In this document: piece by piece, positions 12,996 to 61,090 of the stretch
How positions within the stretch are numbered: position 1 is the stretch's first letter
How the letters are laid out: every line of letters begins with the position of its first letter
Assembly (NCBI GenBank): GCA_002633005.1
Contig: NMRA01000146.1
Coordinates: 209,640-273,639, forward strand
Length of the DNA: 64,000 nucleotides
DNA from: Phoronis australis
Lineage: Eukaryota; Animalia; Phoronida
Direction of reading: 5' to 3'
Translations under genes and position numbers: made by a program
Notes under the pieces: generated by a model
What the model was told of the DNA's origin: nothing
The model's database searches: none
What the model saw: the letters and a program-made list of their open reading frames with translations, nothing else

Positions 12996-13032
<37 letters not shown>

Positions 13033-13691
13033 TATTATCACTCAAGCGTGTAAGTTTCTGCAATTATTGTGTCAACAAAAATTCAAGCTCCACGATAATT
13101 AATGCGATGAGTTAACATTTCATTGACCGAATAGGCTGCATTAATTTACAAACACTCTACTGCATGTCTTGTAAACATTGTTGGGCAAATAAATAAAAAA
13201 AGAAATTCATTCAATATGACGGCATATGGCATATGGCTTAACAGCTTCGATTCTGTGGAATTTTCAAATGTCCTTGAATTGTTTACCTGCATAAGGCCAC
13301 CAACACGATCCCATGTTCAGCTTTTACCTGGACCACACGTTGGTTAAAAACGACACCATCCACTGTCGCAGTAGTGACGTTCCCTCTGGAGACAATAACA
13401 TGCTGTACGGAGAAGTGCGTTGCTTCGCTTTCACTACAAATGACGTCACGTTTACCACATGCTGTGCACGTAATCTTTGCACACCAAGGTTTGTAAGGGG
13501 ATAGCAGTGTTATTCCTAACAGTTGCTTAATGTATTAATCCGCGCTCCGACAGTAAAACTAACCGTTGATTTAGACCACCAAGTTTCCCATTCTCATTTA
13601 AGGCACGTTGAATCCTCGAAAAATGACCAAATTAGAGAAATTTAATAACATCATATCTCAGACATCGCTTATGGGATCCATATGAAACTTT

Positions 13692-13729
<38 letters not shown>

Positions 13730-15468: not shown

Positions 15469-15525
<57 letters not shown>

Positions 15526-17366
15526 GCAACAACATCAACAACAAAAACAATAATAATAATGGTTTCGCTAGCACTTTCGCTTTATGTACATCTACATTTC
15601 CAATAATGACAGAGTTGTGAACTGATGCGATCGTCACTATAGGAGCTACAGGTGTAGAGCTTAGCTTGCAGTTGCGATAGCCCAAAACTGGTCAGTGGTG
15701 TTTTTTATGAAGCGTCAAAGGGCTCTTACAAACGAGTACGTTCATTAGTTTATTCACAAAAATCACTGCTTCTTAAAAAAGCGCACAATCAAAGGGTCTT
15801 GAATCTTTACGCGGGGGAGAGCCTGTCACCCTTGCAAAAAGTATCTGCTGCTGTGCCAGAATAGCCTTACATGGGCAGCTTTAATAGACAGTGGGTTTCA
15901 ATCGGACTTTAACAGGTGCGCGTACAGGGTGCCAGTCCAAAAATCAACGTTTTCCTATTGCTTTTGGAGGGTAAGACACCTGACGAGTTCCGCGTGAGTT
16001 AGTTGTGTGTTTTACCGCATAGTTTCTGGCATAGTCGCAAGAACGTCGCTAGCGAAGCAAGTGGTCACGTGTTTCACTTCCAATACACATGTACGGTGCG
16101 GGATATAGAGTCTTACGAATTTTTGCTTTTCTTGCAAGAAACTGGGTATACTCCCGGTTCATAGATAAAAAACGTTGTTGAAGTTTTTAAATTTTCATGT
16201 TGTGATGTCATAGTATTTGCAATTAGCCAATGAGAGACTGTATTGATTTTGAAATTGAGAATGCCCTTGGCTCAACCAAGGCATTACGGGAATTGCAACA
16301 CCAATGGACTCACATGCGTATGCTTAGAAGAAATGTTTGTTTATCTTCGCATTCATCGCTTATTCATGGTAGAGTGTGAATGTATTTTGACACCACATTT
16401 CGATTAACGCGACTAAGGTCGTGGTGAGGAAGCGAACTAACTACTAGCGAAAATAATCATCCCCATCTCGAGCATCTCCTCTGAAACGCTGAGACATTTT
16501 TCCAACACCGTCAAACAATTTAGTTTACTCAAGGAAGACTAGTTGTTCATGCCACATATTTTGTGTCAAAATGTATCTGGCCAGTTTTTTTACCCACGTC
16601 GGCGCAAAGCTGTACTATACTATTTAGTACACAGCTTTGCGCCATGTCTATAGAAAACTAAGTGTATCGAAGCGAGCTCGGATGAATACAGGGGTAGAAG
16701 GGTTGTCCTGTAGTGAAGGCGCGTGCGGATGGAATGAGAACGGTGTTTCACACGTCACAGGCTATAGGAAAATACTCGCTTTAACTCATACCATATTGTA
16801 TGGGCACCTGATCGGAGCCGGGTGGCAACCCATGATGTAACGCAACCAGTCACCGACTCAGTATTCTGGCGCAGCAGACGAAACGCGCTGGCGAGGCTGT
16901 AACCCTCATATCCCGTGGACGCGTTCTCAAGACCTCAGGACAGTTATTCACATCGCAAGGGTAGCTAGGGATGTGCACTGTCGGCTTCACTGTACATTCT
17001 CATTTACAGCGCCACTCTGGTGAAAAGAGGGCGCTACGTAATTTCTCAATTGTCTCTAGGTTGCTGATGTGGCAATTATGTCTTATTCAACAGTCACACA
17101 ATTATGAAGTTCATTAGTTATTACCTTTGGATGGTAAATGGCGCAACAGTAATTGTTACATGCACTTTAGCTTCGTAAGTGGCTATGTGTAGTTCTAGGC
17201 TACTGTTATGGTTTCCGCAAATCTGCGACGAAGCGGCAAGGACAAATTCTCTCCCAATGTTTGTGTTGTGTGGCACTGCTGATGTACAGGTGTTGAACGC
17301 CATAGAAGCAAACAGCAGCACCACTGTTCCGTTGAACACTTTAAGCGCTGAATCAACTTCCCTCAT
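6327..17366 (-). CDS. Type I membrane protein with IgGFc-binding (FCGBP N-terminal-like) domain and acidic Asp-rich repeat; 6 coding exons 17125..17366, 13287..13433, 12206..12362, 8583..9130, 7979..8343, 6327..6802 (~644 aa)
   Basis: Signal-peptide-like N-terminus followed by GREFVLA; repeated FTVIP..AWDKAY / EQIPPISRWGR / VPPIEQFRADY motifs; terminal FGVLLYG....YGMFGG typical of the IgGFc-binding domain; DGDGIDNDCDMRSDEE..DDDNDGLIDED; TM helix LVGPLVALVVCLTGVGFVVTVLIY followed by RKR; Ser/Thr-rich tail. Intron phases 2,2,0,2,1 join into one open frame. Confidence 0.8.
9384..10316 (+). mobile_element. Non-autonomous Kolobok-like DNA transposon with THAP-domain remnant
   Basis: TTAA|gggagaatgccaccc ... 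gggtggcatgctcct|TTAA (TIRs plus TTAA TSD). Internal frameshifted CIVPACPN...GISFF / LPQESGMLRKWL...HLRVCGL resembles a THAP zinc finger. Confidence 0.65.
10513..11010. mobile_element. PIF/Harbinger-like MITE
   Basis: TAA|aggcgctttcccattag ... ctaatgggaaagcgact|TAA, with internal ccgaagcttcg repeats. Confidence 0.65.
13737..13884. repeat. ~148-bp imperfect palindrome (foldback) beside a (TA)n tract
   Basis: atagattattacatg...agtcgttatc...ctagagcc...gtggatttt..agaattatcgccc-ga-gggtgataattct..aaaatccac...ggctctag...gataacgact...catgtaataatctat; (TA)n at ~13692..13738. Confidence 0.85.
15468..15560. repeat. (CAA)n microsatellite grading into (TAA)n
   Basis: Seen directly. Confidence 0.95.
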
Positions 17367-18630: not shown

Positions 18631-19144
18631 CTTGGGAGTGCATTCTAATCGTCAAGAAAAAAAGAACAGAATATTGATTACATTTTTACTTCGTGGCCTA
18701 CAATGTAAAACAGTCCATCACCGGTACTTTCTCGTGACTAATGCAGCCACGTTGAAAATAATCGTAGCGCAGTAGCCAAATACAAGTTAACATCAGCTAT
18801 TTGCAATTTTATACAGTTTTGGTCGCAACCTTACGCTACGTGCATTCAACGACACCTACATGTAACCAATTAAGTTATTGATACACTTCCAGTATCAGAG
18901 AGGGCAGAAAACAACAGAAGCATAATGGTGAAATATTAAATGCATGTAGTTCGATAACACTGGTTTACCCCTAAGCTGCTGCAATATCAAGTTACTCTAA
19001 TCGTTTATATCCCCACACTTCCAGATTAGCAGGATTTGTTCACATTAAGAATCATTCACTTATATAGTTGTTCGGCTAGACCCATCAGACCAGCGCACAG
19101 GAATTGCAGCTACAAGTCAAATCTTGTGCACGAAGAAAGGGGTC

Positions 19145-22100
19145 TTAGAAGGCGTTGTCTAAGGCTGCACAAATTTGACCTTCGCTGACGACGGTCAAGG
19201 GAAGGAACTTGGCGTCCGCCTGAAGAAGGTATAGCTACAAAGATGAAAAATCAGTAAATTTATCAACAAGCTATCATTTTGTTTTTAGTTGCTGCAAATA
19301 GCAGCAAAAATGAACGCTGCTACTTGGAATCGATGTCGGGGCCAATCAACATTTATTGTATATTACATTATTGTACATTACATTATTGTATATTACATTA
19401 TTGTATATTACATTATTGTATATTACATTATTGTATATTACATTACAGTGCAGGTTAACTTGGAAACAAGAACTACTAATAAACTATTTTTCCCAAAATA
19501 GAGACAACAACACTGGCTAATCTCATTTTCAACAAGGTTTGAAAACACTTTAGAAGGTCGCTTGTTTTCCACTGCAATCACCGATTGGGATATTTATATA
19601 AAGCTGTACATCCACAGAGAAATTTCCGGATCTTCTTATTGGCGATTCCGTATCAAAATGAGATCTGCAGTAAATATGGTGCTAAAGTCCTACTGGTCCA
19701 AGTTTGCCTTGATAACTCCAACATTAAGGCTGAACGAGTGAATACGAACTCGAAATCTCGAGTTCAATAATTTGCAGCTCAAATTTTGGAGTCGTCAAAT
19801 GCAAACTTGGACGAGAAAAGTATATGCATAAACCATACTTTACTAGAGTACAGACACTAATAGACACTTATCTTTAGTTCACAAAAAGGAGATTAGAAAA
19901 CGTAAAAAATATTCGAGTTCGATTTCGAGTACAACTATTAAATCCGGCCCTCGGTATGACAAATTAACGCAGCAATGAAGACAACACATACCTGGGCATA
20001 CTCAAAACCACGGGATTTCTCGGACTTAGATGCTCCGCTGCCAATCCACACGATAACTTCCTCACCGGTATCGACGACAAAGGCATCCTGTGACCAGAAA
20101 AAAATGGTACAATATTGGCATAACTAGTAAAACGACATCAATCAGACGTAAGTTGTACAGACGCATATGCGGTCTGCGTCAAGTGGAAATGCTAACTTGT
20201 CTTCCAGCTTATCTGAATGTCGAGCACGTTGTGTGTTTTTATTGACTTTCTTTGAACACTGGGTGGACTTCGGGTACGAGTTCCCTTTCTCCTCAGAGCA
20301 TGTAAACAACGGTGTCAGCATGCCATATTTATGATTATCCCCAACGTTGAGGGGATCTTCGAGACATCCTAGATCCGCCACTGTCGCGTGATTTCAAAAG
20401 TCACGCACAGATGTATGTATTTCTACAGTACCTAAACAGTAGTTAGTGATAAAAACCCCATTCAGTTCTAACAGGGCTACATGATTATACAATGTACACC
20501 ACAAAATGCAAAAATTGTCTATGGAACTACCCACTTGTATGTAAAGGAATTTCGGAAGAGAAAGCCAGTCCTTTGATTTTCTAAGCATATTTGACTGTTT
20601 AGATATCCTAAGTATTTATCATCGTGGCAACGGACATAAATCCAGTCATAGTAAGGGAAATTTGAAGACTTGACTTCATTGGAGTAAGTGTCTGGATTTG
20701 ATTTTTTTCGACAACCACAGTGTTAAATACATAGCATGACACAATAACCTGCAGATTACTGCTGAGTGCTGACGCCGCCATGTTGTCACCTCAGAATGCA
20801 TATGTCGTGTCAAAGGAGACGCCTGAGAATAGTGGCTGGTACTTGCGTACTTACGTTGGTATTCAGCATAGACCTATCAAAGCCACTTAGTTCTTCAAAC
20901 ACCAAGTTTCCTGACGCGTCCGAAAGCCTTGAAAAACAAGAGGATAAAATTATAAACTGGATAATTTCACAAGAGCCTTACCTAACTTCAAAGTCACCCT
21001 ATAAATCCACACCACGGTACGCGATATTTTCACCAAGACCTGGCGTGCGTTCAGTAACGGTAGGACATTTGCTAAGACCTAGCTAAAATCTAATTAAAGT
21101 CACATGTTCTCATTTAAAATACACGGCAAAGCTCACGTAATCTCGCGAAGTCTTGCTTTTTAGCGAGGTCCTAGCGTTACTGAACGGCAGGCTGTACTCG
21201 AAATCGAGCTGAACATTACTTTTTACACCTAACATGTCTGGTTCTACTTTCGTTCGCACTGAAAACCACTGTCTGGTATTTCAAATACCAGACACTGCTT
21301 TTCAGTGCGTATTTGTCAGTGGACAGATACATACTGGTTTACGTGGATGACTGTCTAAATCTAATATACCTGCATGTACCATTTAACATTAGAGCTACAA
21401 GTTTTCACTCGAATATTTTAGCACTTTGTAGCTCGACTCTAGGGGTTGTCAAGTAGAAACATGGATTGACACTCAACTTCGTAAACCGTCATTTACTCGA
21501 CGACGCAAACACCTTTATCTTGACTTTATGCTTACATTAAGTGGAACAAAAAATGTTAATAATATTCGAATTTGATTCGCGCGTAAATATTAGACCCCGG
21601 CACAGGAAAAGGAAGAATAGGTATGAATCTAGGTTAATGTTTAATAATCAACCCTCAAAAACTAGAAGCTGATATTTCGATGCATAACTTAATGCCGAAT
21701 AAAGAAGAGACCGGGTGTTTAAAAGCGACACATTTTAAAATTCTTATTTACAATCTCGGAGAACCTGGGCTCAAATTCCTAATCTACTTTATTTGGCATA
21801 CAGAATGCATATAATCGTAAGAAGTGCAAGCCTACAACTCTACGTATGATCTGTTTCAGGATAAGTGATTTGAAGTTAGAAAATAGGTATTACACTCCGC
21901 CTTCACAATAACTGTTACCGTATAAAGTTTTAACCATACACATGAAAGCCAAGAAATGTTTTTACAAATTAACTTCGTAATTAACAATTTCTACAATATT
22001 CTCAGATGCTGTGTTCATGATAGTAGCGAGTTTAAATTACTTTTCTGAAATGGTTATGTGAAGCATATCAGACCGAATTTCTAAGGTAAATTTTTTTATG

Positions 22101-25100
22101 AAACATAGTCCCCAAGACGTAGACGCAAGAGTCCGGGAAGGAGGAGTTCATTGCTTGTTATGCATAGCGATATATTTTTGCGAGACCTCGCCTTTTCTCG
22201 AGGTTCTCGCGTCTACGGAACCTACATTTGATGACCTCTAAATCCAAACTCCACTCTCGGCTTCAAACTTGAGATTTCGAGAACTTAGTCGAATATGTAG
22301 CTTTAAAGTGTGTTGTTATCAATCGCTAGATGGGATTACTACACATGAAACTAAACACAAATATAGTGTATCTCGAGTTCATACATAAGTGGAACACAAA
22401 ATATCAAATCTATTGATAGATCAAGTACAGAGCTAGGAATACCAGCCTGGAAACGTAATCAACGAATCTTTCCGCAAAATGTTGAGGCTAATTCAACTCA
22501 CTTAAGCATTTTCTTGGGACGTCCACTGTAGTCACCTTCTTCATCCTCGACCTCATCCCCGTCAGTTTCGTCGTCGGCCAAACTTTCATAGAAGTCGTGC
22601 TAAAAGAACAACACGCACAGTCGGCCATGTTTTTTTTTAAATTCCTCTTCAGGTTGAACTGCGCATGTCCGAAATGTCGCGCAGCTATAGGGAGCCGTTA
22701 GGTAAACACTGGACGGTTTTCCCACTAAGTGAACTCGTCTGCGCGCAATCACGAATCCTTGAATATGTGTAGACATGAAGCATCGTTCACAATATCAGAA
22801 GAGGAAGTAAAACAGCTTGTTGTACCATTGTAAGTGCCTTGCACTGATATGAAGCGAAATAATGTATATCAGAGACCATCATAAAGGCACGGTGGTTCTT
22901 TTCTTAATCTGGGCGTGGAAATCAGTCTTAGAGGTGTCAGCTAAGCGGGCTCAAGAGCTCAACTCAGAGAGCAGTGAATAAGTTGGCACTAACAAAACAA
23001 CTCTTTCAATATGTTTTAGGCTTTACTGTGTAACATCAGTACATATATTTCGTGCACAGGTGGCCCACAGTTGGATCCTATGTACCAAAGAATCATGCAG
23101 TAAAATTTTACCTAATAATACTTACATCTTTTGATATACCATCTTGCTCCAAAGTGTGACTCTGAGGACGTCCATTTCTTTCCGATTTGAGTTGTTCAAC
23201 AAATTGCAAGGCCTGAAAACTCAAGAAACTCAGACGAAGTTTGTCTCCAAAATGTTAACACAAGGTTACCCCATAACTCTTGACATAAACTAACAGTGCA
23301 GAACACATAATACCCATGAATACAACACTCAACCCAGGCTGATCAAGTTCTTTGCAACAGAATTGAAACCATTTTTGAAGGAATGACAATGATGGTCACC
23401 ACTAACAAGAGCAATGTCCAATAGGGGAACTGTGTCCTCTTAATTTATTCAACAACCAATGTACAATGGTCAAGTGGGAGTGAAATCTATCTCCGAAATA
23501 GAACAAAGCAGTGTTTCTAAGTCGTTTGTAATATATTATTAACGATATTGCAGCTTCCATCAACCTGGAATGACTAGGTGTGGCTATTATCAGACTTCTG
23601 ACATATCTACATGTACACTCTTCAACTGTGTGAAGTCATTGACTACAGCGCTCACATTTAAACGTTTTCAATGAATACAACTGCACTTTGTTTAGCTTAG
23701 ATGGTGTTCAAATAGCATTGCCGTTTAGTTCCTGCTAAACTTTAGCATATTAGGAGCAAGCATCTTAAAGGTTTACCTGGAACTTTTCGTCTTTGTTGGC
23801 ATCTCTACCATTCCACTGGTAGATTACGAGTCCTTTATCCAAGATGAACACATCACCATCATTAAGATTCGACTCCTTCAGCGAATGCTAAACAATAAGA
23901 AAGAAACAGTCGTTAGAGGGATGATTTTCCTTGACATTGGCATTCGATATTAGCATTAGTAAATGGGTGGATTAAGCGAACCACCTATAGAAAATTCAGT
24001 TTCGTTGACTTCAAGAGATAGCAAAATGGATTCTTGCGAGTGGCAACGACAACAAACGACAGGAACAGCAACACTGATCTGAGTGCAAGGTCGATGCGTA
24101 TAACAATTCATGGCAATTTTCATCTGAAGGGGGTACAACATCGTGTGTTTGGATGTCCGACCAGACGGGACAGATAACGCTAATGCAGCGAACTGCAGCA
24201 GAAGGATAGCACCCAAAAAAGGCAATAACAATGCAAACCAAGTAGTTTTGAAGTTGGTTGATCTGAAAGATATTGATTCCGATGAACGTGATGAAAATTA
24301 ATAGAGCGAATGCCATTATTTACCTCAGACACATGGACCTTTCTGCCTACACGTTTGTACCGCAAGAGGCGACTTTTGTATTCTTCCGGCGTTACGTGCC
24401 TGAAGCCGGTATCAGCGCCACCTTTCAAAAGTCTAAAATTGTCAAAACATTCATTAATCGTCGGATCCCAAGACCAAAAACGACTCAATCAAAAGAAATA
24501 GACCAACCACGAATGTGTTGCACATCCGATAAGTGCACTTTGTATCCCTGATATCATTTAAGACATACATTAGACAACAAATAACGACATCTTTCACCCT
24601 TCAGGTAGCGGTGCTTTTACGTCAAAAAAAGACAATTTTCCTGCGACGTTTTCCGTAGACGAAATAAGACAACCCGCCTGAGAATTTCGAATCGTCAAGA
24701 GCGTCACTTGTAATGCATGGCAATATATCGCGAAGACTTACTTACGCTAGACATAGCTTTGTCGCGCGTGTCTTACGTCAACAGAACGCAGGCCTGGTTA
24801 GTGTGAACTGTTCACCAGAATAAACGAACATACACAAACGATAAACCACAGACTCAAATGAAAAAGGGCGACAACATAGAGCAGAGAAAGATGCTACTCA
24901 TCAGCAACACGTATATGAGCAGAAATAACAATTATGCAAACAAATACGCTGGCAACAGAAAACGTAATAAACGGAAATCCACTGAAAAAGTACTGTAGAG
25001 ATGAAGTTTATACTTGCTTGATAGAGATATAGTAGGCCTATGATGACGGTTTACTGATGACGAATAGTATTTGATTAGTGGGTGAAAGGCATACCGCGGA

Positions 25101-28100
25101 CAGGTAACATCGAGGGATGAGAGTGATGAGCTGACCATGGAACCGCTAATGCTAATTAGTAGTTAATGAAAGCATATGGGAGTCATGTGCTCAGCTTCAG
25201 GCGATATCATGCGTAGATTTGCGTGATCTGACAAAATAATACTGTCTGCACTGCCGGGTCAGGGGAAGGTGGGGCGCACCTTGTTTTTGGCTGCGGTATA
25301 CTTCCTATTATGGGGTATTATCGTTTTTATCTGCAACGACGCAACCCTGTTGCAATGAAATGTCTACGAAAAAGTCATATCAATGTATCCTGTCGAACAA
25401 CACGCCTGTATGCTTTGTCAGTAATTTGCTGGCATATAACGTACCTGGAACTTCGAAGTTTCGTTTTGAAATTGACACTAAGTTTAAGAATGGTAGGCAC
25501 ATCACGTCAAATAATAGGCCCCTTTTAGAAATCAAGCGACACGGGAGTAACAGAACAATCACCGTGCTATCAGTACAGACGCATATAGTGTACAACACGT
25601 GATAACTCGATTTTCGTTCACAACCAGTTATCGTCATACAAAACAAAATACGAAAATCTGGTTTAATTTCAAAATACATGCTGTTTAATCAAACCGTGAC
25701 GTGTATCAAATCTCGCATTTCCCTCCTCATCTTCATCAACTTCACCCAATTTGAGCGAGAGCCCTGCGACAATCCCCTATCTGTTAAAACACTGACAATG
25801 AGATGAATGAAATAAATGACGGTTTTAGAACAAAATCACCAACGTCCATTATGAGTCAGAATTTGAATGTTAGTTCCACTTTTAAAGGATAGTAAACCCT
25901 GTTTTGGTGATTCCTAACCAATTCTCGCTCAGTCACTTGCTAAGGCACCATTGTGGTCTCACTTGAGTGGTAAAAGCAGGATTCAACTAAAAACACATAC
26001 CAATGAGATAAATATACATGTACATAGCTCATTGACACCTACATGAACTGTCTTGTGTCAAAGATTGCATACTGCGGTTTTTGGTGGGCGGTGTTTTCCT
26101 GCAGTTGTCGTGTATCTCGCCTGAAGCGTAAGTCACACTTGTCTTAAGCATACTTTGTAAGGAGTTTTCAATCTTTTCTCCAAACGTTTGAGGGATGTCC
26201 AGGGTTACTGAGCGATGTTTTGTTTCAAAGAATTGGATGAAAAAGTCGTTTTTATTATTTGTTTAGGTCAAGGTGGGCTTTGGTATCCTTTTCATAGTTG
26301 GATAAGGAATTAACTGTTGAAACCGCGAGTCAGACATTGAACGCGATTTAGATGCGTTTGCACACAGCACGGTTATATAATCAAGGCTGGAATGGACAAA
26401 GGGTCACTTCTAGTTCAGACAAATACTAAATTTTCGTTCTGTCATGCAACCCACTCTTCGTAAATGTCCGAATAGTTACGGACAGGCGTTCGGGTACTCA
26501 CTCAATACGATCAAAATACTCTTTGAACATTGGCGACTCGTGGTTCATCACTTCACGGTGCTGGACTGGCTTATCATCCAGGAAGTGGTCCAATTCGACC
26601 GTCTTGTACGCAGCTGTGCCATACTCGTCCTACACAATGAGTCAAAGCACGTGACATGCGGCAGTGACGTTAAGAGGGGTAGGCCTACTAATAACTTCTA
26701 CCTGTACATCACTGAAATCTACGACATGAACCCAATACACAAAAGGATTAGTAAAAGCTGAGCAAACATAAACGTCAACGGCACCAACTGGGTCTGCATC
26801 TGAAATCTAGAAGGCGCATTACCACCGTTAGCTACGAGTGACAAGATGCTGAGCTCCACGGTTCTCCAAAAGAGTTTTCGAGTGACTTGTTCCTGGCGCT
26901 ACAAGTTCAAAGTTAGTAAAAAGCTAAAACGAAGGATAACAAATAGGTGACCGTCAACCAATGGTTCAAGCTGCAGAGTCGCGACTACAATCAACCAATA
27001 AAGCATGCATCCGTATGTATTTTCGACGCTAACGGCGCTGGAAATAAAACGCAGCGTAATATTTATGAGACCAGAAACCAATTCCAGAACGAGAGATGAC
27101 ATTCATGTTACTTTTATTTTTTAGGACTTGAACGATTTTAATGATCGACTTTAAATTTACCAGGAGGCGCTAGACACATACATGTAGGATATTAAGTACA
27201 CTATCATACATTTTCGCTAAATGTACATTACATTTATTGGATTGGTTTTAGGTACGTTGACTCGTTTATTGTTATCATTTCATTTTACCGAAGGAAGTTT
27301 TAGAATTCTGCACGGGTTCAGTATTTCCGTGAATAACGTACAGTGACGCTGAAAGATATTTAAGGAGTACTAAGAGACATTCAACAGCAAAGTTGACTTT
27401 AGTTTAACAAACGCATCCCAAACGCATACAGCGTCTCTGTATAAACATACGTTATCATTTAATCCAATTAAAGTTGAAAAGCTATTATGAAACAAAAACA
27501 TTAACTGTAAAAAAAATCGATTTCAGGAAGTTAATTTAAAGCCAAAATGGTCCTGTTTCACGCAATCAAGGAACTTTTCAAATGAATATGTCCCATAGAG
27601 TTGCACATGTATTGCATATTAACATCTTGTATGAATGGGATGTGGGCGGGAATTGAACTTTTTGTGTGATAAAGTCTTTATTGTATTGCTTAACAAAAAA
27701 TAAAACAAGGTGGCGTAATGCGGCAACGTCCCATAAATGCAGGCATTCAGGTAGTCACGTGAACTGCTTTTGCTTTGCTTTCAGTGTATTCAGGTGTTTG
27801 AAGGAGGATCCTTTATTTCTTAGCACCACCTGGTGAACTAGAAGTCTCTCAATTTAAAGCCATCACCTTAGTCAAATGTATTTTGGAATACGTTGGGAAA
27901 TTGCACACAGAAGCATCTCATGTTCTCAAGCCTCTCCACACTATCCTGCGCCACAACGCAGGACACTGCTGCCCACTAGTGGCAGCAACGAGTACCTAAT
28001 TTCATCAAAGTAATCCAAGAATACTTTGGACTCCCGACCTGCCACCTCACGGTGTTGTACTGCTGCGTCGTTGAGAAAGTGGTCCAACTCGACCGTTTTG

Positions 28101-31100
28101 TAAGCCGCAGTGCCATATTCGTCCTGAAAAGAACGAGAAACACAAACGAAAAAACGTACGTGTCTACGCACATGAAGTTGCCTCGGTAGGAGAGGTCAGG
28201 TTTGGTACATGATAAGGGGTAGATGTGCCAAACAACACGTGCGCCAGGTGTTCGCCTCTGGTCCTCACCAACAACATAAATTAAAGAGAAGACTGCACAC
28301 AAAATCCCACTCAACAATTATGTTTTAATAGCGACTAAATAAATGTTTACATGACTTGATTTGGAGACAAATCCGCATAGCTGTTGAACGCGAGTTCCGC
28401 TGGGTGTGGGATTCAAACACCTTACCTGAGTACTGAACTCGCCGATCCAGAAGTGAACATCGTACGCCAGCTCCTCGGATTCTGGGTTGGGTTTATACGT
28501 CTGGAAGCAACAAATCACAGACACATTTTCAACACTACGCGAATTCAAAGCGACAGTAGTTTCCAATATAGACTCAATTGTTGGGTAAAAGCTGATGTAT
28601 CCATACAATCAGTGCTGGATGTCACCCCAAGACTTTCCAGCAGAAGAAACAACACACGGGAGAGGTCGCCTCGCTCACGGCGAAATTCTTCTTCAGTAGC
28701 GTTAGCATGATTGAGGTGAACTTAACGCTATACACTGTCTTCAGGAATCCCTAGTTTTCCATATTTACTAAGTTCGCAAAAAGTCGCACAACTGATACCA
28801 AATTTTTCTTGTCATGTCAAGATGAAACAAAAACGATTTTGGACAAACTCGTGTAATTACCATTGAGGGCGTGAATGCGCACTTCTTGCGAACAAGGTTG
28901 TAGCGGCTAGCACTGAGAGCAGGTCTTATTCTAGCACAAGTGTCTGACTGCTGACGACAGTCAGTTTCGAGAGGATGGAAAAGGTTAGTATTGGGTAGTG
29001 TTCAAGTACCCTTTTTACGCGACAAACGATAGACTCCTAATAGTGAAGAAATGATGCACAATCATGAACCTCATGACAACACAGCAAAATCACGTCTACT
29101 TTCAATCTCAAACCTACATAGTGTATGTAACTCACGTTCAGGATTATGTAGGAGTCTCCAGAGTAAAATCGGCCATAGTCTTCTTCCGGCCAGTCGACAA
29201 TTTTGAATTTCTAAAACAGAATTGTGACCATTTTACTGTCACAAACATCAGAATACCTGTTCTGGCGCAGTGTCAGCGAACAATCGAGAGAAACACAGGT
29301 GATTCTACGTACAGCCTAATTCTTTTATTCGTGTGCCGTCAGTACATAGACAAACCCGTAAACTGAAATAAACAAAACCCTGAGTCACTACTACGAAATA
29401 TAATACAAGCACAGGCAGTGACAATATATACAAAACCGTTATTTACATCAACGAAGAAAATGTACAAGTAACGAAATGGCTACATCAGATAAACTGAATC
29501 TTATATGAAAATACTATATACAAAAACGAACCTAATTCATACACAATTCTGCCGTGATACCGCGACGCAAACTAGACACCAAGTCACGCTAAACCATTAC
29601 AATAATATGAGCTAGAAACAGACTGGTTTGTGAATTGCAATCTCAAGGTCGCAGCGAACAACGCCCAAACCCTCGACACGAACCACGATGGACGAAATAC
29701 GGCAAAGTAAATAAAGCGAAAATACTGAAACTACACGGGACACGAGAAAATGCATTGCACAAACCAGAATATAACGATAAGCAAAAGAACACTACTTACA
29801 TCATGAAAACCCTGCAATCTCGACGATGAAACCAATGAGATGCATACACTGCACACAGATACGAAATACGAAATACGAATGAATGGAACTGGCGGGTAAA
29901 ACGCTTTTAAATGTCAGTACCACGTGACAAGTTCACAATCTGGGGGGTACTTGAAAATGAGTACAACAGGAACAATACCTAATATACACAGGCAATATGA
30001 ATGATTGCGTCTGCAGTAACAATACCCAATGCCATGTACAAACCGACATAAGGTGAACAATAACGACAAGGCAAGCTACACGGACAGTCTCAAATCAGAA
30101 TGGCTTTTATTTAGAAAACTGCAACTGCATTTTGCTGAAGTTACTTGCAACTGCCGAAAATGTTTTTCGAGACTTGACGCAAGTCCAGTTCTTGGGTACA
30201 AGCAATGTGGCTGTCAGAGTGACCAGAAATCAAGATATGTTTTTACTCGAGGTCAAGCTTGGTATTATTTCTGGCATTTTCTATTGTACTTTTGTGCGAA
30301 AACACAGAGCTACAATCTCGAATAAAAACTCAAAATGATGAGTAAAAATTCGAAATTTCGAGTTCAGACTCGAACTTATAGCATTAACGCTGGGGTCATC
30401 AAGTACATGCCATGATTAGAAAGTCATTCGCGTAACTCATAATGTAACGACTCGTGCCCAAACTAAGGCTCTTATCACGAGTTCGCACAAAGGGTTGAGC
30501 GGACATTGTCAAGACTATTTTTGAGTTCAATTTCGAGCACCAAGATTAGATCATGGATCCAGGTGTTGGATTAAAGATGCATGATCTCATTAAATTGTGA
30601 ATATGCGATTGAAGTACTCATTTACAAACAACCCCGGGTCCGTCAGTGTGCCGGAAACCATCCAAGAACCAGTTATCATTACAATCTCGCAAATGTCTCG
30701 TTTTGCGAGACTATTTTTACGTAAACTGGTATGATACTTCATCATGGCGGACGAAGATCCGATGATGGCCAAGAGAACAAATTAGACGTGCAATTTCATT
30801 TTGCCGTCACCTTGGACAATAATCAACATTAAGCTACTTTGGGTCTCTGGCAGTGCAAATTCTAGGTATTTGCACACACTTCTCGTCCACATTCCCGAGG
30901 ACGACACCAGAATCCCTGAGAAACCCCCTGAGCATTGCCCTTACCCTTAAAAAGCAGAGTTTTAATTATTTGTTTATTTCATTATCGAATGACGATTGTG
31001 CAATATTTAGAATTGCTAGGATTTTTGATATGTTCACATTCGTTTTCAAGTTTATTAAGTGTGCAGTTTTCTTTAAAACCCTAAGTCGTCTACACATTGT

Positions 31101-32936
31101 TTCTTTTCTTGAGTGTACTTGTACACAATTCTCCGGGAAGTCACTAGGTGACGCTTGTTTCAAATTTAAATATTCATGGCTTTACTTAGACACATAGTCT
31201 TTCAAACCGAAACCAACTTGAGATAGGCATACAAAAGTTGACTCTAGCGCCGAGGGATTACCGTTACAGTATACATGTATGGGTAAAACGCAGGTACATT
31301 AATTAATTGTGTACGAAAAGAAATGCACCAAACAAAACCAGCCTCCCAGTAAGGCTAGGACCTCGCTAAAAAGCAAGACTTCGCGAGATTACGTGAGATA
31401 TTGCCGTGCATTTTAAATGAGAACACGTGACTTTGACTAGGTTTTAGCTAAGTCCTAGCGTAGGTCCTAGCGTCTACTGAACGCACGCCAGGTCACTACA
31501 GTGAGTGTAACAGAACTTACCACAACGCGCCATATCCTTAAGCCGGGTTTTTGGCCAGAGCCCTGCCAAGCCTCCTCGGTCTCCGCGGATTCCTCTGCAC
31601 GGAAACATGAATTCGAATAAACAATGAATACAACAAGACCAAAGCCAAAGGTTGACATTTGCCCTCATTGTGCATGGTGTACGCAGATACCAAAGGTGTT
31701 CTTTGTTCAAGGATTTACAAGCATTTTGACATCACAAGTGACATAAAAATTGAATCTACAGGCCGCTGTGGATAGCCATCTGAAAACTGACACAAGCAAC
31801 CCGGGTAGATACTGACGCAGGACGCACGCCGGCCAGAGGTGACCCCAAAATGATTTTGTTCTCATCTCATGTAGTAAACCATGCGCGCACCCAGGGGGGA
31901 GGGCTCGGGGGGGGCTCAAATGAGCCCCCCATTTGGTGAAGTGGGCAAGAAGGTCCGCCTCAGAGAAACAAAAAGTCCGAGGAAATGAGATAAAAGTCCA
32001 CTAAAAAGGCACAGACGCACAGTTTACAGTGCTGAAGGTGGTATCCCGTTTTTTTTAGTCCTCCAGCTTTTTTGTTAGCGCAAAAGGCCCACTTGGTCAG
32101 AAATTCGAGCGCCAACAAACTAAAGGCTGGGTGCGCGCATCTAAACTGAGCATGCGTAGCAAGTGCTAAGTTTTATAGGCATCACTGGCCCGGGGTAGTC
32201 TACAATGTGTTTTACAATTGTGAGTCACAGCTCATTAGGTAATAAATCATATTATATTATTTTACAATAGTCTGCAATGAGAACAGCTTCCCAAAATAAC
32301 CCTTGAAGCCAGGAAGACAAAATGACAGTGAACTAAAATATACATGTAGGTGCAAACTAAAGTAAATAACGACACGACAGTTTCCGATCAAAGTTTTCGA
32401 AGCCAGGTGACTGGCTGAAAGCGACACCTCGTGGTACTTCATCCACGGTACTCACTCTTGATGTTCTTTTCCAAGTCAGACCCAAACAGTGCTAAGTTGC
32501 TGTCTTTCCAGTCGTATTTCTTAGCCTTTCTTAATCCTGGAATAAAAGTAAGTGATTCAGAATACCGTAACTAAAACACACAGATAACCTGATTGGGACA
32601 CGCTGTCACGCTCAAAGCCAACAGCATAGTAAAATGATCCCGAACTAAGTAATACGGGGAAGGATAAAATTTTAATTTTCTAGTATTATATGTTTTAAGG
32701 GCGACTACTGCAATTAAAGTAAAATAAATTGATCGAAAAATAAGTTTGAGAGCATACGTGCGAAGCGGTTGACTATTAAACCGCATGTAAGTATGTCTGT
32801 ATCTAATAGCAATTCCCTGGTTTGTACAGTTCGGAGATGCTGGCAATTGAGCTAGTAGAAATTACTATGCTATTTACGGCCAAACTTGCGACGACGACAA
32901 TACTCGACACAGGAATGCACGACACTTACCCGACAT
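19145..32936 (-). CDS. Gelsolin-like protein (three-domain severin/fragmin/actin-modulator type, ~367 aa); coding exons 32930..32936, 32456..32536, 31521..31594, 29136..29210, 28426..28500, [27996..28123 OR 26502..26629], 24324..24432, 23777..23887, 23126..23212, 22502..22599, 20855..20927, 19992..20087, 19145..19234
   Basis: Spliced product reads [29 protein letters not shown]...[33 protein letters not shown]...[27 protein letters not shown]...[10 protein letters not shown]...[18 protein letters not shown]...LSDASGNL...[24 protein letters not shown]...VVSEGQ...NAF*. All junctions are GT-AG and in phase; total 1104 nt with one copy of exon 6. Confidence 0.93.
19352..19446. repeat. 15-bp minisatellite (tattacattattgta, ~6 copies) in the last gelsolin intron
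   Basis: Seen directly. Confidence 0.9.
21036..21193 (+). mobile_element. ~155-bp MITE family A copy
   Basis: Termini cgttcagtaacg.taggac ... gtcctagcgttactgaacg; homologous to 31340..31494, 39840..39993, 45788..45933. Confidence 0.8.
22118..22220. mobile_element. ~100-bp MITE family B copy
   Basis: cgtagacgcaaga ... tctcgcgtctacg inverted termini; homologous to 52633..52732, with half copies at ~2787 and ~34371. Confidence 0.6.
26502..26629 (-). CDS. Gelsolin-like alternative exon 6B (128 nt)
   Basis: gtgtag|GAC...ATTGA|gtgagt; [42 protein letters not shown](E); phase 0 to 2. Not in the ORF track. Confidence 0.9.
27996..28123 (-). CDS. Gelsolin-like alternative exon 6A (128 nt)
   Basis: tttcag|GAC...ATTAG|gtactc; [42 protein letters not shown](R); phase 0 to 2. 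Confidence 0.9.
31340..31494 (-). mobile_element. ~155-bp MITE family A copy
   Basis: Reverse-orientation copy (gctaggacctcgctaaaaagcaagacttcgcgagattacgtgag...gtcctagcgtctactgaacgcacgcc). Confidence 0.8.
31880..32141 (+). mobile_element. MITE family C (TIR catgcgcgcacccag)
   Basis: taaac|catgcgcgcacccag ... ctgggtgcgcgcatc|taaac; inverted homologue at 34086..34371. Confidence 0.75.
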
Positions 32937-34085
32937 TATGGCTTGGCTCTTGGTCTACGGCTTATCAACAACGGACAACTGAAACGCAGAAAAAACACGA
33001 TGATATAGGCGATGTGGGTTTACTGAGACGAGCACATACGCAACAGACATCTCAATTCACATGTGGCAGGCTACTCAAACTAATTTGTATTTTCATCAGC
33101 AGAAATAGGTCAGTGCTCCCATTCGAAATCGCAGCGTGTTGGAACGTGCTGTGTTGAATACCAAGTTCGTTCTAAAACGAAATGCTTGCGGAAGGACGTT
33201 CAATATTATCAAGATATGAGCACATACTAGCTAGTTAATTCGCAACAGGACGCCGGCGCCTAAAATACCAACTAAGCATAAACTGGATGATTTCACTGTC
33301 AAAACAAACCTGCAGCATTCAAGCGCCAGGAATACAAATTCATAACCAAGCGTCATTTCTGATATTTCTTCGCTCTTTAGGTGACACTAATCAGGTTTTC
33401 CTCGTTCCTGCCTTCCCAGGCAGAGTAAACTATGGGAAATTTGTTTTTATGTTCTACAACAAAACCACACGCGGGGACTGACCATGCATAAAGCATACCT
33501 ACAGTCTAAAACTGCATCCACGAGTGCGTTTCTATTGTTTTAATGGACATGGCAAACCAAGACTGTCATGCCAAAAAAGAGCAAAACAGACAAAATCAGT
33601 TTTCAACCAAAAACCACGACTCGCATGCGACTACAATAGGCACCAGTAAACAATGCACTCGGAAGGCAAAAACACCCCAGATTACAAAACTTGGGCAGAC
33701 CATTGGTGTTAAGTAGACATTTTTCACTCCAATAGTCTGAAGGGTACCTAAACTTCTAGCTATAACTTTCTTGCCGCTAGGACGTAGTACTCAAGAGTGT
33801 CTGTCTACAAACACCTCGGTTACCAGATAAGTAGACCAAGGGGGTACCAAATTGCCCTTTTTCAAAAACTAATCATATCTCATTCGTAGCTAGTACACTT
33901 AAAGTAAATCTCGAAATGACCAGCCAATACAGCAGGTGCCAATTTTTTATGAAGTTGAGGGGGTAAGACCGTGGCTCAAAGAAGTATTTGGGTTTCAACG
34001 AAGACAATTCTGCAATGATTCCTCTTATTGGGTTGCTTTGAAATTGTTTATACTCGTAGAGCAAACGTCATCAGTACTCGTAAAC

Positions 34086-37300: not shown

Positions 37301-39839
37301 TCGTAACAAAAGACCACATGGCTTCCTATTTTGCAAAAAATGCTCGAATGGAACGAAATATTGGATCAATTTCGAATATTCCGCCGTGTTCACTTTTGTG
37401 CTTCAGGGGTGGAAAACACATTATTCTTGGACACTGAGTTGATGAATTTCAGGTGGACGTTCCTCTTGACCGATACAACTACCATTCTACGCCAATGTCT
37501 CAGTTAAAACTCAGCAGTCATGCACAGCGTGGGTGAAGAGTCAAGGCTCTCATTTGTCTTGATCAATAACCGAAATCCCATCTCGCAAAAAACAACGCAT
37601 TTCGGTAGGTGGCGTAATTGCAACTTACAGGAACGAGGCTGCGGAAAGGAAACGGATAAAATGTGTTTATTGTAATCGACTTAGTTTCAAGACTTTTAAG
37701 AATGGCTGCATAGAATGTTCAGTTCATTATCACTATAATTGGTGTCGGATCCAGAATGTCGTAAGGGGACAACCACAATGTAGGTAGCAAAACCAAAGGT
37801 TCAGCGTTTGCCCTAAACTGCATGCCGGTAGCGTTTCCATTTTCTGTCACGTCCATTGTGGAAGAGGGACACTAGAAAGGCGGGCCAATTTGAAGTTAAA
37901 ATGTTATTAAAGCAAAAAACATTACGGCTGCGGTAGTCAGGACTCAGGAGACGACTGCAACTACGGAATAAATGTGCTGCTAAAAGCAAAAAAAAACACA
38001 CACTTCTGTGGGTGACCAAAGAATACTATTGCTGACGGGATATATTTGGATAGACACTGTAAACACAGACCAATTTGTAAGTCTGAAAATGAATACTGTC
38101 ACGAGTTAGCATTTTGCTGCAGATGAAGGGCTGGATTGGACGCCGGCACTAACGCAACCTTGCAGAGGCGCATGAACAACCATTATATCAAAAGAATTTA
38201 TTTATACCAAAGGGGCACATTCGCTAAACAGAATTCAAACAGAAATATTAAAAGATAAAAAAGCACCACCAGTTCGCTTAAATAACAGTGTAAGCCAACA
38301 TTTCGTCAGTCGCATCCTATTGGAACTGCTACCTACTAAGCAACCCCCCCCCCGAATCTATGGCTAGGCCTACTGCTCAAGATTCCGAGTCCATGCAGCA
38401 GGAAAGCATACAGTTCCCCCGCGATCAGTGTCCAGGCTGCCTACATAACACGCACTTGAATGCCAACCCGGATGCTACATTCAAATTCACGCAGGCCGGA
38501 CACCGAAATCCGGACGGAAACCGATTCCCAGCACATCGGGGTTGGATACAGTTCAGTAGCTGTCTCGCGACTATAAAAATTTAGCCAAACTCAAGTCAGT
38601 TAAAATACACGACAAGAATGCTCCACGTAATCTCCCGAAGTATGCCTTTTAGCGAGGTCCCAGCGTACAATGTAGGTCTTAGGGTTATTGAACTCATCGC
38701 GGTTTGAGCACAGACAAGTCCATCGGAAGTCAGAAAATCCCAGAAACATTTATTCAGTGTCGTACTTGCGACGCTGCCTAGAGTATTACTCCCGGTTTTT
38801 CGGTTAATGGGACTCAGATGCCGAGTTAATCACTAACGGGTGAAGTACACTGTATTTTCGCAGCCATATTGCCAGGCGAGAGCAAAGATGCAACGCTTAT
38901 ATATGTTGACTGTTGTAATACGACCGCATGCTAATACGTGGATGTCCGGGTTTGCAATTAAAACATGTCTGTATTTTCAAAAAAAAACGTTGCAGCTGTT
39001 TCGTGAATTTTCGAAAAAAGGAACGATTTTATCAAACTAGCATTTGAATTCACTCTGTGAAACTGAATCTTTAAGAAAACATCGGAGTGTTTAAAAGAGG
39101 CAAATCCTCTGTGGAGGATAGCACGCACATGAAGCAGGAACCATGATTTGCTAAGTTAGATTATTATTTCAAACAGGATTAAATTTTACAAAATAACGTT
39201 GAATTTACAAATGTATGGTTAATTTTGATTTCAATTAATTTTCCCTTTCCTCTGCCCATGGCGACTGAGACCCTTCGCACAAACCGAGCGAGCACATTGT
39301 GTAACACTAGTTTACATTTTTCGGGCTGAAACCGTCAAGGCAATCCACAGACCGACTGGTTTGCCTCAACTTCAGTTTCAACTGTCATGTAAACTTTATT
39401 CTAATGTTGTGAGTTTTCATTAACGAAGGGTGGAAATTGGCCTCAGTTTATTCGGATTTTGTCCGAATAAATTATAGACTCGTGGGGAAAGGAAACTGTT
39501 TGCGGTATGCATTGCAATATTTTACGCAAATTCAGTTATATCGAAAATAAATTAAGAAGTGTATACCCTATTGTTTTGGATGCCCCTGACTCATCCATGG
39601 GTTACCCAAGCGGCAGTCTTATCTCACGCTGTGTTACCGTGCGTACATGAACTGAAGACCGAATAACCCGGCAGTAGATTTTGGTTGGGGTTGCAAAGAC
39701 CAGCTCGCACCCAATTTCACCCGGGTGAGTCTTGTCTAAATGCGGAGGTCTCTCAATAAAATATGATGGCTCAAGGAGTGCGTAAACAGAACTCTTCTAA
39801 ACCACTATAATGATAATAACATAGACATCGGCATAGCGT

Positions 39840-39993
39840 GACCAGGCGTGCGTTCAGTAGACGCTAGGACCTACGCTAGGACCTAGCTAAAACCTAGACA
39901 AAGTCACGTGTTTTCATTTAAAATGCATGGCAATAGCTCACGTAATCTCTTGCTTTTTAGCGAGGTCCTAGCCTTCGTTACTGAACGGGAGGC
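39840..39993 (+). mobile_element. ~155-bp MITE family A copy
   Basis: Near reverse complement of 31340..31494. Confidence 0.8.
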
Positions 39994-40142
39994 GGGTTTC
40001 CGAATGATTTGTTGTGAGCCCATGTCATTCTATCGTTGCTAGTTGCGAGGGGTTGCGCGGGGAAAAGCTCCTCAACCTCGAAATTGAAGATCCGTAACTG
40101 AGAACGATGATGACGAGATCCGAAGTTACTTTTCTGTTTACT

Positions 40143-40298: not shown

Positions 40299-41872
40299 CT
40301 GTCCGACAATGATCAAACTTTTATTTCCATTGGGTATTTCTCGCCGACAAGAGATGAGTTTCCAATACTATTTAAGGTAAGCTGCGTTACGTAATAGATA
40401 AACCTGATGCGAACTATGGTCAACACCAATAAAGCCGGTTGAAGACGAGTCTTCAATATCGGCGTAGATTTCAGTAGGATCTACATGTAGCTAAAAACCA
40501 AGACATCGCGAGATTACGAGACACAACCTTGAGCATGTACTTTAAATGAAAACGTGTGATTTTGGCTACATTTTAGCGAAGTCCTAGGGTCTTAGCGTTA
40601 CTGCAGTCTACCTATGTAAAAAGTCTTCCTCCGTCCGAATTACACAGGGGCTCGGGCCTGTTTAAGGTGCTTCAGATGAGAACAGTACTGGCATACATGT
40701 GATTCGACGCTGATATATCGCTATATTTGTGCACAAACAACGCCACTCAGGTGTGTTTAGAATTTGCCCTTCCTCGTATTCAATAGGTCCGCCTACATGA
40801 ACAAATGAGAATAAATTTCATCACCGTGCACAAGGAAATCATAGGCGTATATGTAAGTAAACGAAATCGATGTAATTAATAGCGGGTACACGTGGGCCTA
40901 AGACTTTTTCAACGAAGCCTTTTACATTGCATACAGCCAGCCTGATCTGGCGGGTATATTATGTCATAAAATCACTGGATTGAATTTGATCACATAACAA
41001 TGGAAGAAGGCCGGCCGAAATTGAACACAAGTAATACATAACACAAGTAATACATAACACAAGTACATATACTTTCGCCCGGCTCGGAAAACTTGCTGCG
41101 CAGTGTCATGCAAATACCTTGCCGTGACTACTTACCGAACTACTCTTGAAATCGATAAAAGATTAGGATTAGCTACAACAGGTACACTGAGTCGGTTATA
41201 ATAAGACTCGACTTTACATTACAACACTGAGATCGTGCATTTTTACGATGAACCCTTCGGTTGCCAGCCATTCGCCGATCGACAGACAAATCGCAGGTGT
41301 ATGAAAGGAATAATTGATTCGATGAAATTTATTATCAAATGCGCAAAACAAAATATGAACGTGTTGAACTTAAATTCACGACAATGACCCATTGGTGAAG
41401 ACTGTCTGTCAGGGGCAAATAACGGAGGCCATTTGACAGTCAGTCGGTGCTGAATAGACAACCACAGTCTCTGAAGCTCAACACACTGGCGAACTAATCA
41501 CACTACTTCTGTATATTTTGAGCTGACAGGTCTGGGTCAAACATTCCCCGAGGTCTTTCGCAGCCGTTAACACGCCGGACACTCCCGCAGATAGTCCTTT
41601 CAATAAAATTACCAACCAACAAATCGATAAACGCCGGGTCAATACACAAATGGTAGTTTGCTCGCTGTCGACCTACAGATGTAGCCTTGTACTAGGAATG
41701 TGCTTGGTTTGGGAAAACAACAATGACCGAATTCAAGCGCGTGTTACTGCCGCCAGTCAGAAACAAAATGGTGAGCTCATATGGAAAACAGCTTTGCCAC
41801 TACAATATATACAGCGGTACGAGCTATGTACTCACAAAAAGCGGATAAATACGAAATTTAACACATACTCAC

Positions 41873-42000
41873 CAGTCGACGCACAGGTAAAGATCTATCT
41901 AGGTCCACACCCCTGCTAGAGATGCTTGAACTCCTGTTTATGAAAGGTCAACCAATCACGTCACAGGGTCTAAGGGCATTTCCTTATTTATAAATATAGG
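41873..42000 (-). promoter_or_regulatory. Candidate TATA promoter and non-coding first exon of the gelsolin-like gene
   Basis: tatttataaata at 41985..41996, with a strong minus-strand donor CTG|gtgagt at 41872. The gelsolin ATG exon has its own acceptor (tttcag at 32979), so an upstream exon must exist. Confidence 0.3.
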
Positions 42001-60780: not shown

Positions 60781-61090
60781 GCTTACGCAGTTACGTGTCT
60801 TCTTTTTCTTAATACCATATCGGTTGTTCTTTGCCGAAGTTTCTCTGCTATGCAGAACGACCACTGCTGCCTTGGGTTTTGTTACCAAATGTGTGGGGAC
60901 ACTCCACCTACACTTAAGTGTGACGAGTTGCACCATTGCAAGGTGCTCTATAGCTACACAGCTGTTGGTTATCTCACTTAAGGTTTAGTGCGTACACTGT
61001 AAGCATTAGACAGAAGAAACATGAATGTGTTCGTTCATTCAGTACATCCTTTGTGCAGAATTCAGCATTGGGTTGTTATTTCCAGGTAGA

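What the first reader, a model, noticed from the sequence alone, without database searches (positions are those of the whole stretch)
26502..28123. Mutually exclusive duplicated exons switch the G1 actin/Ca2+-binding segment of a three-domain gelsolin
Seen: two 128-nt exons, both phase 0 to 2 with intact AG/GT sites, in flanking introns with no visible similarity. The first 17 codons show 8 synonymous and 0 non-synonymous differences, so both copies appear to be under purifying selection. 12 of 43 residues differ downstream (NDAA vs DDKP, AGR vs MNH, KVFLD vs PMFKE, EIR vs RIE). Including both gives a frameshift and a TGA inside 6B; skipping both gives a TGA in codon 7 of exon 7, so only one-at-a-time use is productive. 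Established: this segment aligns with human gelsolin 96-140, which holds the long actin-binding helix, the type-1 Ca2+ ligands D109/G114/A116 and the edge of the PIP2-binding 135-142 stretch. Inference: a splicing switch tunes Ca2+/PIP2 sensitivity or actin-isoform preference (e.g. muscle vs non-muscle). I do not know of such a switch in three-domain invertebrate gelsolins, but could not search for one.
Basis: partly seen in the sequence, partly recalled or inferred. Interest (0 to 1): 0.8.

Follow-up and report, generated by a model that had tools for sequence, protein, structure and literature searches.

The report
Swappable exon in invertebrate gelsolin
An invertebrate gene for a small actin-cutting protein (gelsolin) carries two old copies of one exon, and RNA reads show one or the other spliced in, so it makes two equally long versions that keep the same actin-gripping helix and likely differ only in fine tuning; the same exon is also duplicated in two other animals' gelsolin genes.

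Summary
Observation confirmed. Exons 6A (28123-27996) and 6B (26629-26502) are 128-nt AG/GT copies in one 367-residue three-domain gelsolin gene. RNA reads show all four one-at-a-time junctions in 3 of 3 raw-read runs and list no 6A-6B or skipping junction. 6B dominates; 6A is 4-11% of junction reads. Both copies are under purifying selection.

The proposed actin/Ca2+ switch is only partly supported. The actin-binding helix (human 96-112) and the Asp109 and Glu97 positions are identical in both copies. All 12 changes lie after the helix, mostly at positions that vary across the family. The one change beside the calcium site is Ala/Pro at human position 116.

New here: the same exon is triplicated in an unnamed animal locus (L054) and partly doubled in a Lamellibrachia gene model, each time with Ala and Pro copies. 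Mytilus and probably Owenia duplicate other exons of this family. Three of four loci spanning exons 5-7 have one copy, and trees cannot tell shared ancestry from convergence.

This is a new member of a known class (tandem duplicated exon substitution). My paper searches did not find it for gelsolins, and the scan had not noted it before.

The parts
27996..28123 (-). Exon 6A, minor alternative copy (128 nt, phase 0-2; Ala at human position 116; non-consensus donor GTACTC, long pyrimidine tract)
   Evidence: (junctions 5-6A and 6A-7)
26502..26629 (-). Exon 6B, major alternative copy (128 nt, phase 0-2; Pro at human position 116; donor GTGAGT), closer to the family consensus
26630..27995 (-). 1366-nt intron between the copies; branch-point-like motifs near its 3' end; no complementary stems above shuffles
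28426..28500 (-). Exon 5, shared upstream exon (75 nt)
24324..24432 (-). Exon 7, shared downstream exon (109 nt; end of G1, linker, start of G2)
41873..41893 (-). 3' end of a non-coding 5' exon joined to the first coding exon (its start was not fixed)
   Evidence: loose read ends, located
32930..32978 (-). First coding exon (ATG at 32936)
32456..32536 (-). Exon 2 (81 nt)
31521..31594 (-). Exon 3 (74 nt)
29136..29210 (-). Exon 4 (75 nt); the block that differs between two Owenia proteins
23777..23887 (-). Exon 8 (111 nt, G2); the block duplicated in Mytilus
23126..23212 (-). Exon 9 (87 nt)
22502..22599 (-). Exon 10 (98 nt, acidic G2-G3 linker)
20855..20927 (-). Exon 11 (73 nt)
19992..20087 (-). 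Exon 12 (96 nt)
18698..19234 (-). Last exon: stop at 19145-19147, 3' UTR likely ending near 18698
   Evidence: many molecules begin at 18698 in X2-X4

Best explanation
One three-domain gelsolin gene splices either exon 6A or exon 6B between exons 5 and 7, giving two 367-residue proteins that share the actin-binding helix of domain 1 and likely differ only in fine tuning. Shown: both junction paths, 6B as the main form, 6A as a minor form, and purifying selection on both copies. Inferred from sequence: exclusivity comes from splice-site competition backed by frame control, since an exon of 128 nt makes double inclusion or skipping hit a stop codon that nonsense-mediated decay would clear. Inferred from human gelsolin: the loop after the helix (positions 113-116, Ala or Pro at 116) could shift the calcium or pH response of the Asp109 site between gelsolin and actin, and the changes at 123-132 alter the loop and short helix on the far face of the sheet, which could affect stability or partner contacts. 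6A is the more derived copy and is likely used in a minority of cells or conditions. The duplication most likely arose separately in several lineages of a family prone to exon duplication.
For: Four junctions in 3 of 3 raw-read runs, none listed for 6A-6B or 5-7. A contig from a second study (X1) also joins 6A to exon 7, at depth 34 against 375 for 6B. dN 0.22 with pS 0.73. Both copies keep 24 of 24 columns that are at least 95% conserved among 198 distinct family segments. Codons 1-17 match helix alphaA, and alphaB (128-133) lies on the other side of the sheet (PMC5368644); the model of the closest relative P0008 has the helix at 104-120 and the first change falls at 122. Ala116 is part of the hydrophobic surround of Asp109, which binds Ca2+ with actin Glu167 (PMC5368644 passages). 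At the 6 whole-codon positions where P0008 matches one copy, it matches 6B at 5. The same exon has three intact copies in L054 (Pro, Ala, Pro) and a partial Ala copy before a full Pro copy in Lamellibrachia KAI0221917.1. Shared His at codon 15 in both window copies against Thr in all L054 and Lamellibrachia copies favours separate origins.
Against: No functional data exist for either isoform. The differences sit at positions that vary anyway (mean entropy 1.04 bits against 0.19 for codons 1-17), and Ala and Pro are both common at position 116 among family sequences (83 and 115 of 198; the sample is biased by my two queries). The same paper found the effect of Asp109 protonation on severing limited. 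6A never exceeds 11% and tissues are not known. The difference between runs (10.6, 3.6, 9.5%) is significant pooled (p 0.003) but not at the upstream junction alone (p 0.23) or with counts quartered (p 0.17). No isoform pair confined to exon 6 appeared among 301 other full-length sequences or in 5 further clusters. The exon tree resolves nothing on origin.
Confidence: 0.68

Rival explanations
1. The pair is an old, inherited, tissue-regulated switch: an Ala-116 exon and a Pro-116 exon kept since a distant ancestor set two calcium or pH thresholds for severing, and some cell type uses mostly 6A.
For: Ala and Pro copies occur together in all three genes found with this exon duplicated (window, L054, Lamellibrachia). 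In the window and L054 position 115 changes to Ala along with it. Synonymous sites between 6A and 6B are near saturation. The AU test does not reject grouping 6A with the L054 Ala copy (p 0.47). 6A use differs between runs.
Against: 6A is no closer to the L054 Ala copy (31 of 42 residues) than to 6B (31 of 42), and the nearest neighbour of the L054 Ala copy is its own Pro copy. 3 of 4 loci that span exons 5-7 have one copy, including L003 and L076, whose best matches are the window's nearest group. Ala/Pro is a one-base change that is common in the family. No run has 6A dominant.
Confidence: 0.2
2. 6A is a tolerated spare copy: it is spliced at a low steady rate, makes a working but equivalent protein, and is kept only because a broken version would be harmful.
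For: Low use (4-11%), non-consensus donor, lowest family-profile score of the five copies compared (7.6th percentile) and two residues seen in 0 of 198 other segments.
Against: Zero non-synonymous changes at about 39 sites in codons 1-17 despite near-saturated synonymous sites shows long, strong selection; a spare exon used at 10% could be lost by one splice-site change. Repeated retention of duplicates in this family suggests a benefit.
Confidence: 0.1
3. The two exons are an assembly artefact (two alleles or two genes side by side), or 6A is a dead exon.
For: The window has assembly gaps elsewhere. In X1 the 6A contig retains the upstream intron and no 5-6A joint is listed.
Against: Flanking introns are unalike, other exons are single, reads cover all 30 bins from exon 7 to exon 5 in X2-X4, and both exons join the same exons 5 and 7.
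Confidence: 0.02

Closest known systems
Tandem duplicated exon substitution (mutually exclusive homologous exons), as catalogued in human and Drosophila (PMC9741552, passages; PMC8373072, supplement search)
   Same: Two homologous exons, one used at a time. Core and ligand residues are kept and changes are conservative. The class is enriched in actin-binding and Z-disc genes and often arises independently in the same family.
   Different: GSN, SCIN, CAPG and VIL1 are absent from the human table, where ACTN1 is present. Tissue specificity, typical of the class, is not shown here.
Alpha-actinin mutually exclusive EF-hand exons (ACTN1 event in the table; Waites 1992 seen only as a reference title; the functional effect is recalled)
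   Same: An actin-binding protein swaps a segment close to a calcium site by exon duplication.
   Different: In alpha-actinin the swap removes calcium ligands (recalled). Here the side-chain ligands Asp109 and Glu97 are kept in both copies, so any effect should be smaller.
Three-domain gelsolin-like proteins of invertebrates ('gelsolin-like protein 1/2', severin, actin modulator), with fragmin, CapG and gelsolin G1-G3
   Same: 367 residues, 50-59% identical to named sponge, cnidarian, mollusc, annelid and echinoderm members. The closest relative P0008 has three Pfam Gelsolin repeats and its model matches gelsolin G1-G3 best.
   Different: Known gelsolin splicing concerns the N-terminus (secreted or cytosolic; Drosophila PMC2119988, abstract start in the listing). 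An internal swapped exon in G1 was not found in my searches.
Muscle myosin heavy chain clusters of mutually exclusive exons in arthropods and molluscs (PMC3912159, PMC2257972; search listing and abstract starts)
   Same: A cytoskeletal gene in which different lineages duplicate different internal exons.
   Different: Myosin exon use is tied to muscle type; no such link is shown for this gelsolin.

Membership tests
Mutually exclusive tandem duplicated exons | Adjacent homologous exons of the same length and phase with intact splice sites | tested here: met
   128 nt each, phase 0-2, AG/GT, 87 of 128 nt identical
Mutually exclusive tandem duplicated exons | Each exon is spliced to the same upstream and downstream exons | tested here: met
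   All four junctions in X2, X3 and X4
Mutually exclusive tandem duplicated exons | Double inclusion and double skipping are absent or rare | tested here: met
   No 6A-6B or 5-7 joint listed at the 3-read threshold against 73 6A-7 reads in total; decay of such transcripts could hide some
Mutually exclusive tandem duplicated exons | Both copies under purifying selection | tested here: met
   dN 0.22, pS 0.73; 0 non-synonymous changes in codons 1-17; 24 of 24 conserved columns kept
Mutually exclusive tandem duplicated exons | Tissue- or stage-regulated use | tested here: inconclusive
   6A share 10.6, 3.6 and 9.5%; significance depends on how reads are counted; tissues unknown
Mutually exclusive tandem duplicated exons | Both protein isoforms are made | not testable with these tools
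   No proteomics available
Three-domain gelsolin-like proteins | Three gelsolin domains, no headpiece or leucine-rich repeats, about 360-370 residues | tested here: met
   367 residues; ungapped over the first 183 residues and 71% identical to P0008, which has three Gelsolin repeats. The spliced window protein itself was not scanned or folded.
Three-domain gelsolin-like proteins | G1 calcium residues at the Glu97 and Asp109 positions | tested here: met
   Present in both exons by alignment to human gelsolin. Glu97 as a type-2 ligand and the 114/116 carbonyls as type-1 ligands are recalled, not from a call.
Three-domain gelsolin-like proteins | Ca2+-dependent severing and capping of actin filaments | not testable with these tools
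   Needs biochemistry
Calcium-sensitivity switch of the alpha-actinin type | The alternative exons differ in side-chain calcium ligands | tested here: not met
   Asp109, Glu97 and position 114 are identical; only 113, 115 and 116 differ in the loop
Conserved ancient exon pair across phyla | Copies group by type (Ala with Ala) across species | tested here: inconclusive
   AU p 0.47 for 6A with the L054 Ala copy, 0.46 for 6A with 6B, 0.47 for the three L054 copies; 26 of 82 exon sequences used

The most novel reading that the evidence does not exclude
Three-domain invertebrate gelsolins are a hotspot of exon duplication, and at exon 6 several animal lineages keep, by descent or by convergence, an Ala-116 and a Pro-116 version of the loop beside the gelsolin-actin calcium site, so one gene gives two actin-severing proteins with different calcium or pH thresholds in different cell types.
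Probability: 0.25. Interest if true: 0.7.

Novelty: new member of a known kind. Interest (0 to 1): 0.47.

Why it matters
Vertebrates diversify the gelsolin family with separate genes (recalled). These data suggest that marine invertebrates repeatedly do it inside one gene by duplicating exons of domains 1 and 2: exon 6 in three genes, exon 5 in L054, exon 8 in five Mytilus species and probably exon 4 in Owenia. The two window isoforms are a natural experiment: the same protein and the same actin helix, with 12 changes around the calcium loop and the far face of G1. A simple severing assay would show what those positions do. If they make no difference, the finding remains a well-supported but ordinary case of mutually exclusive splicing.

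Tried and rejected
No whole genome is held for the window, so paralogues outside it were not checked. The organism's lineage was not settled: a quick tree of 68 rows (the careful search did not finish) groups the window protein only with unnamed sequences, and a search with the neighbouring FASTK ORF gave one distant hit. RNA pairing as the exclusion mechanism: the longest stem in 24300-28520 is 13 bp, and 30 shuffles gave 13-22, so no support. Steric exclusion: the intron is 1366 nt and branch-point-like motifs lie about 16 and 44 nt from its 3' end (the script's printed offsets need 1246 added); a distant branch point was not tested. The exon-level tree had 1 starred branch of 23 and no AU test rejected anything. 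The search of 50% representatives with 6A gave no further tandem model among the 150 listed of 657. A self-BLAST for repeats in 37 long proteins printed nothing, although P0169 visibly has both exon-8 copies, so that screen was insensitive and is not evidence of absence. The genomic DNA of Lamellibrachia, Owenia and Mytilus could not be fetched, so those cases rest on protein models. The PIP2 site 135-142 was not confirmed in the review searched (PMC6164782, passages). Paper searches that found no report of duplicated exons in gelsolins: (listings and abstract starts only); the library lacks most subscription journals, including older work on earthworm and mollusc gelsolins. The supplement held for PMC9741552 is 15,271 characters and had no hits; its Drosophila gene list may not be in it.
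Full report
1. The observation. The gene lies on the minus strand. Thirteen coding exons from 32936 to 19145 give a 367-residue open frame with either exon 6A (28123-27996) or 6B (26629-26502). RNA joints match the introns between these exons, and a non-coding first exon ends at 41873. The only significant self-match in 24001-29500 is the exon pair, and no other exon is doubled in the window.

2. RNA. Four runs were listed and all four were laid; 18-19% of each raw run was read. In X2, X3 and X4 (one study) the junction counts are 5-6A 22/7/27, 6A-7 22/3/48, 5-6B 199/133/330 and 6B-7 172/137/382. No 6A-6B or 5-7 joint reaches the listing threshold, although intronic reads show that precursor RNA is present. 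X1 (contigs, another study) has 6A-7 at depth 34 and 6B-7 at 375; its 6A contig retains the upstream intron and no 5-6A joint is listed. 6A makes up 129 of 1482 junction reads (8.7%): 10.6, 3.6 and 9.5% by run. The difference between runs is significant when pooled (p 0.003) and at the downstream junction (p 0.004), but not at the upstream junction (p 0.23) or with counts quartered to allow for duplicates (p 0.17). Mutually exclusive use is therefore shown; regulation is only hinted at.

3. Selection. Nei-Gojobori counts give pN 0.19 (dN 0.22) and pS 0.73, near saturation; Fisher p is 2e-7. Both copies keep all 24 columns conserved at 95% or more among 198 distinct family segments (from 268 proteins matching the pattern). 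6B scores at the 32nd percentile of the family profile and 6A at the 8th, and the closest relative P0008 sides with 6B at 5 of 6 informative positions. So the duplication is old, both copies are maintained, and 6A is the more changed.

4. What the swap changes. Codon n of the exon equals human gelsolin residue 95+n. In PMC5368644 (Results part 1 and passages read) helix alphaA is 95-112, strand betaE 117-122, and the short helix alphaB 128-133 lies on the other side of the sheet. Asp109 binds Ca2+ with actin Glu167, and Val106, Gly114 and Ala116 surround it. The helix is identical in 6A and 6B, as are the Glu97, Asp109 and 114 positions. The changes are at 113, 115, 116 (loop), 123-125 (loop), 128, 129, 131, 132 (alphaB) and about 136 and 138. 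The model of P0008 agrees: helix 104-120, first change at 122. These positions vary across the family, and both Ala (83) and Pro (115) are common at 116. The same paper judged the effect of Asp109 protonation on severing limited. The PIP2 link is weak: the 135-142 site is recalled, was not confirmed in the review searched, and the change there swaps charges.

5. How exclusivity likely works. 128 nt is not a multiple of three, so only single inclusion keeps the frame, and nonsense-mediated decay would clear the rest (established knowledge, not tested). 6A has a long pyrimidine tract and a poor donor, 6B a consensus donor; the 1366-nt intron argues against simple steric exclusion, and no pairing stems exceed shuffles.

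6. Relatives. The Lamellibrachia satsuma model KAI0221917.1 has a 26-residue copy of this exon with Ala at 116, directly before a full copy with Pro. I infer that the predictor joined two exons at an internal GT; the DNA was not seen. Of 534 related stretches in metagenome contigs, 80 were kept; 18 are genomic. Four span exons 5 to 7: L003, L030 and L076 have one exon 6, and L054 has three intact 128-nt copies (Pro, Ala, Pro) and two copies of exon 5. The other 14 show one copy but do not reach both neighbours. Among 301 other full-length sequences no pair differs only in exon 6, but pairs differ only in the exon-4 block (Owenia CAH1784269.1 and CAH1784268.1, 8 residues; they could also be close paralogues) and in the exon-8 block (five Mytilus species, 6-7 residues). 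One Mytilus coruscus model carries both exon-8 versions in tandem. On origin: both window copies share His at codon 15 where all L054 and Lamellibrachia copies have Thr, and 6A is no closer to the L054 Ala copy than to 6B, which favours separate duplications. The exon tree and AU tests cannot decide. The window's phylum is unknown, which limits this comparison.

7. Comparison with what is known. This is a tandem duplicated exon substitution. PMC9741552 (passages) reports that the class is enriched for actin-binding genes, conserves core and ligand residues, and often arises independently in one family, all of which fits. GSN, SCIN, CAPG and VIL1 are not in the human table of PMC8373072, where ACTN1 is (supplement search). 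Seven paper searches (listings and abstract starts) found no report for gelsolins; most subscription journals are not in the library. The Mytilus isoforms already exist as automatic annotations.

8. Verdict. A real, expressed, selected pair of mutually exclusive exons, and a new member of a known kind. The added interest is that this family duplicates exons repeatedly, and that Ala and Pro versions of position 116 turn up together in all three genes with exon 6 duplicated. The functional switch is not shown and is likely subtle. Interest 0.47.

Noticed in passing
L054:4941-5151: Two copies of exon 5 (75 and 72 nt, both AG/GT, phase 0) only 64 nt apart, so probably excluded from joining by spacing; with three exon-6 copies this gene could make up to six G1 variants.
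   Followed up: partly
P0161/P0260, P0249/P0254, P0251/P0163, P0247/P0259, P0246/P0250, P0169 (match window 23777-23887): Mytilus gelsolin isoform pairs in five species differ only in the exon-8 block of G2; one model has both versions in tandem. A conserved mutually exclusive pair in mussels, open to testing with existing tissue RNA.
   Followed up: partly
P0056/P0230 (match window 29136-29210): Two Owenia fusiformis proteins differ at 8 residues, all inside the exon-4 block; a third (P0231) differs widely and looks like a paralogue.
   Followed up: partly
P0144, P0146, P0148: Models of a second Mytilus coruscus gelsolin contain several repeated partial pieces of the exon-8 end; repeat expansion or assembly error.
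   Followed up: no
P0069/P0308 and P0300/P0301: Pairs that differ only in the last-exon block (an unnamed relative of the window gene; Schistosoma japonicum isoforms 3 and 4): alternative last exons.
   Followed up: no
window 24807: Three reads in X3 join exon 6B to an AG 375 nt upstream of exon 7; probably splicing noise.
   Followed up: no
window about 21040-21190 and 31345-31490, with look-alikes near 38600-38700, 39850-40000 and 40500-40620: A short interspersed repeat, in both orientations, sits in several introns and collects reads from both strands; likely a MITE-type element.
   Followed up: no
window 591-5026 (+), about 6300-17300 (-), 61025-62557 (+): Neighbouring genes: a C2-domain (synaptotagmin-like) gene, a gene with an IgGFc-binding domain, and a FAST kinase domain gene (Pfam).
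   Followed up: partly
window about 56950-57650 (-): AT-rich open frame beside an assembly gap that ends in a cysteine-rich motif; looks like the end of a LINE retroelement (recalled, not tested).
   Followed up: no
P0017, P0292: Animal-type gelsolin fragments labelled as bacterial proteins in public databases; probably contamination.
   Followed up: no
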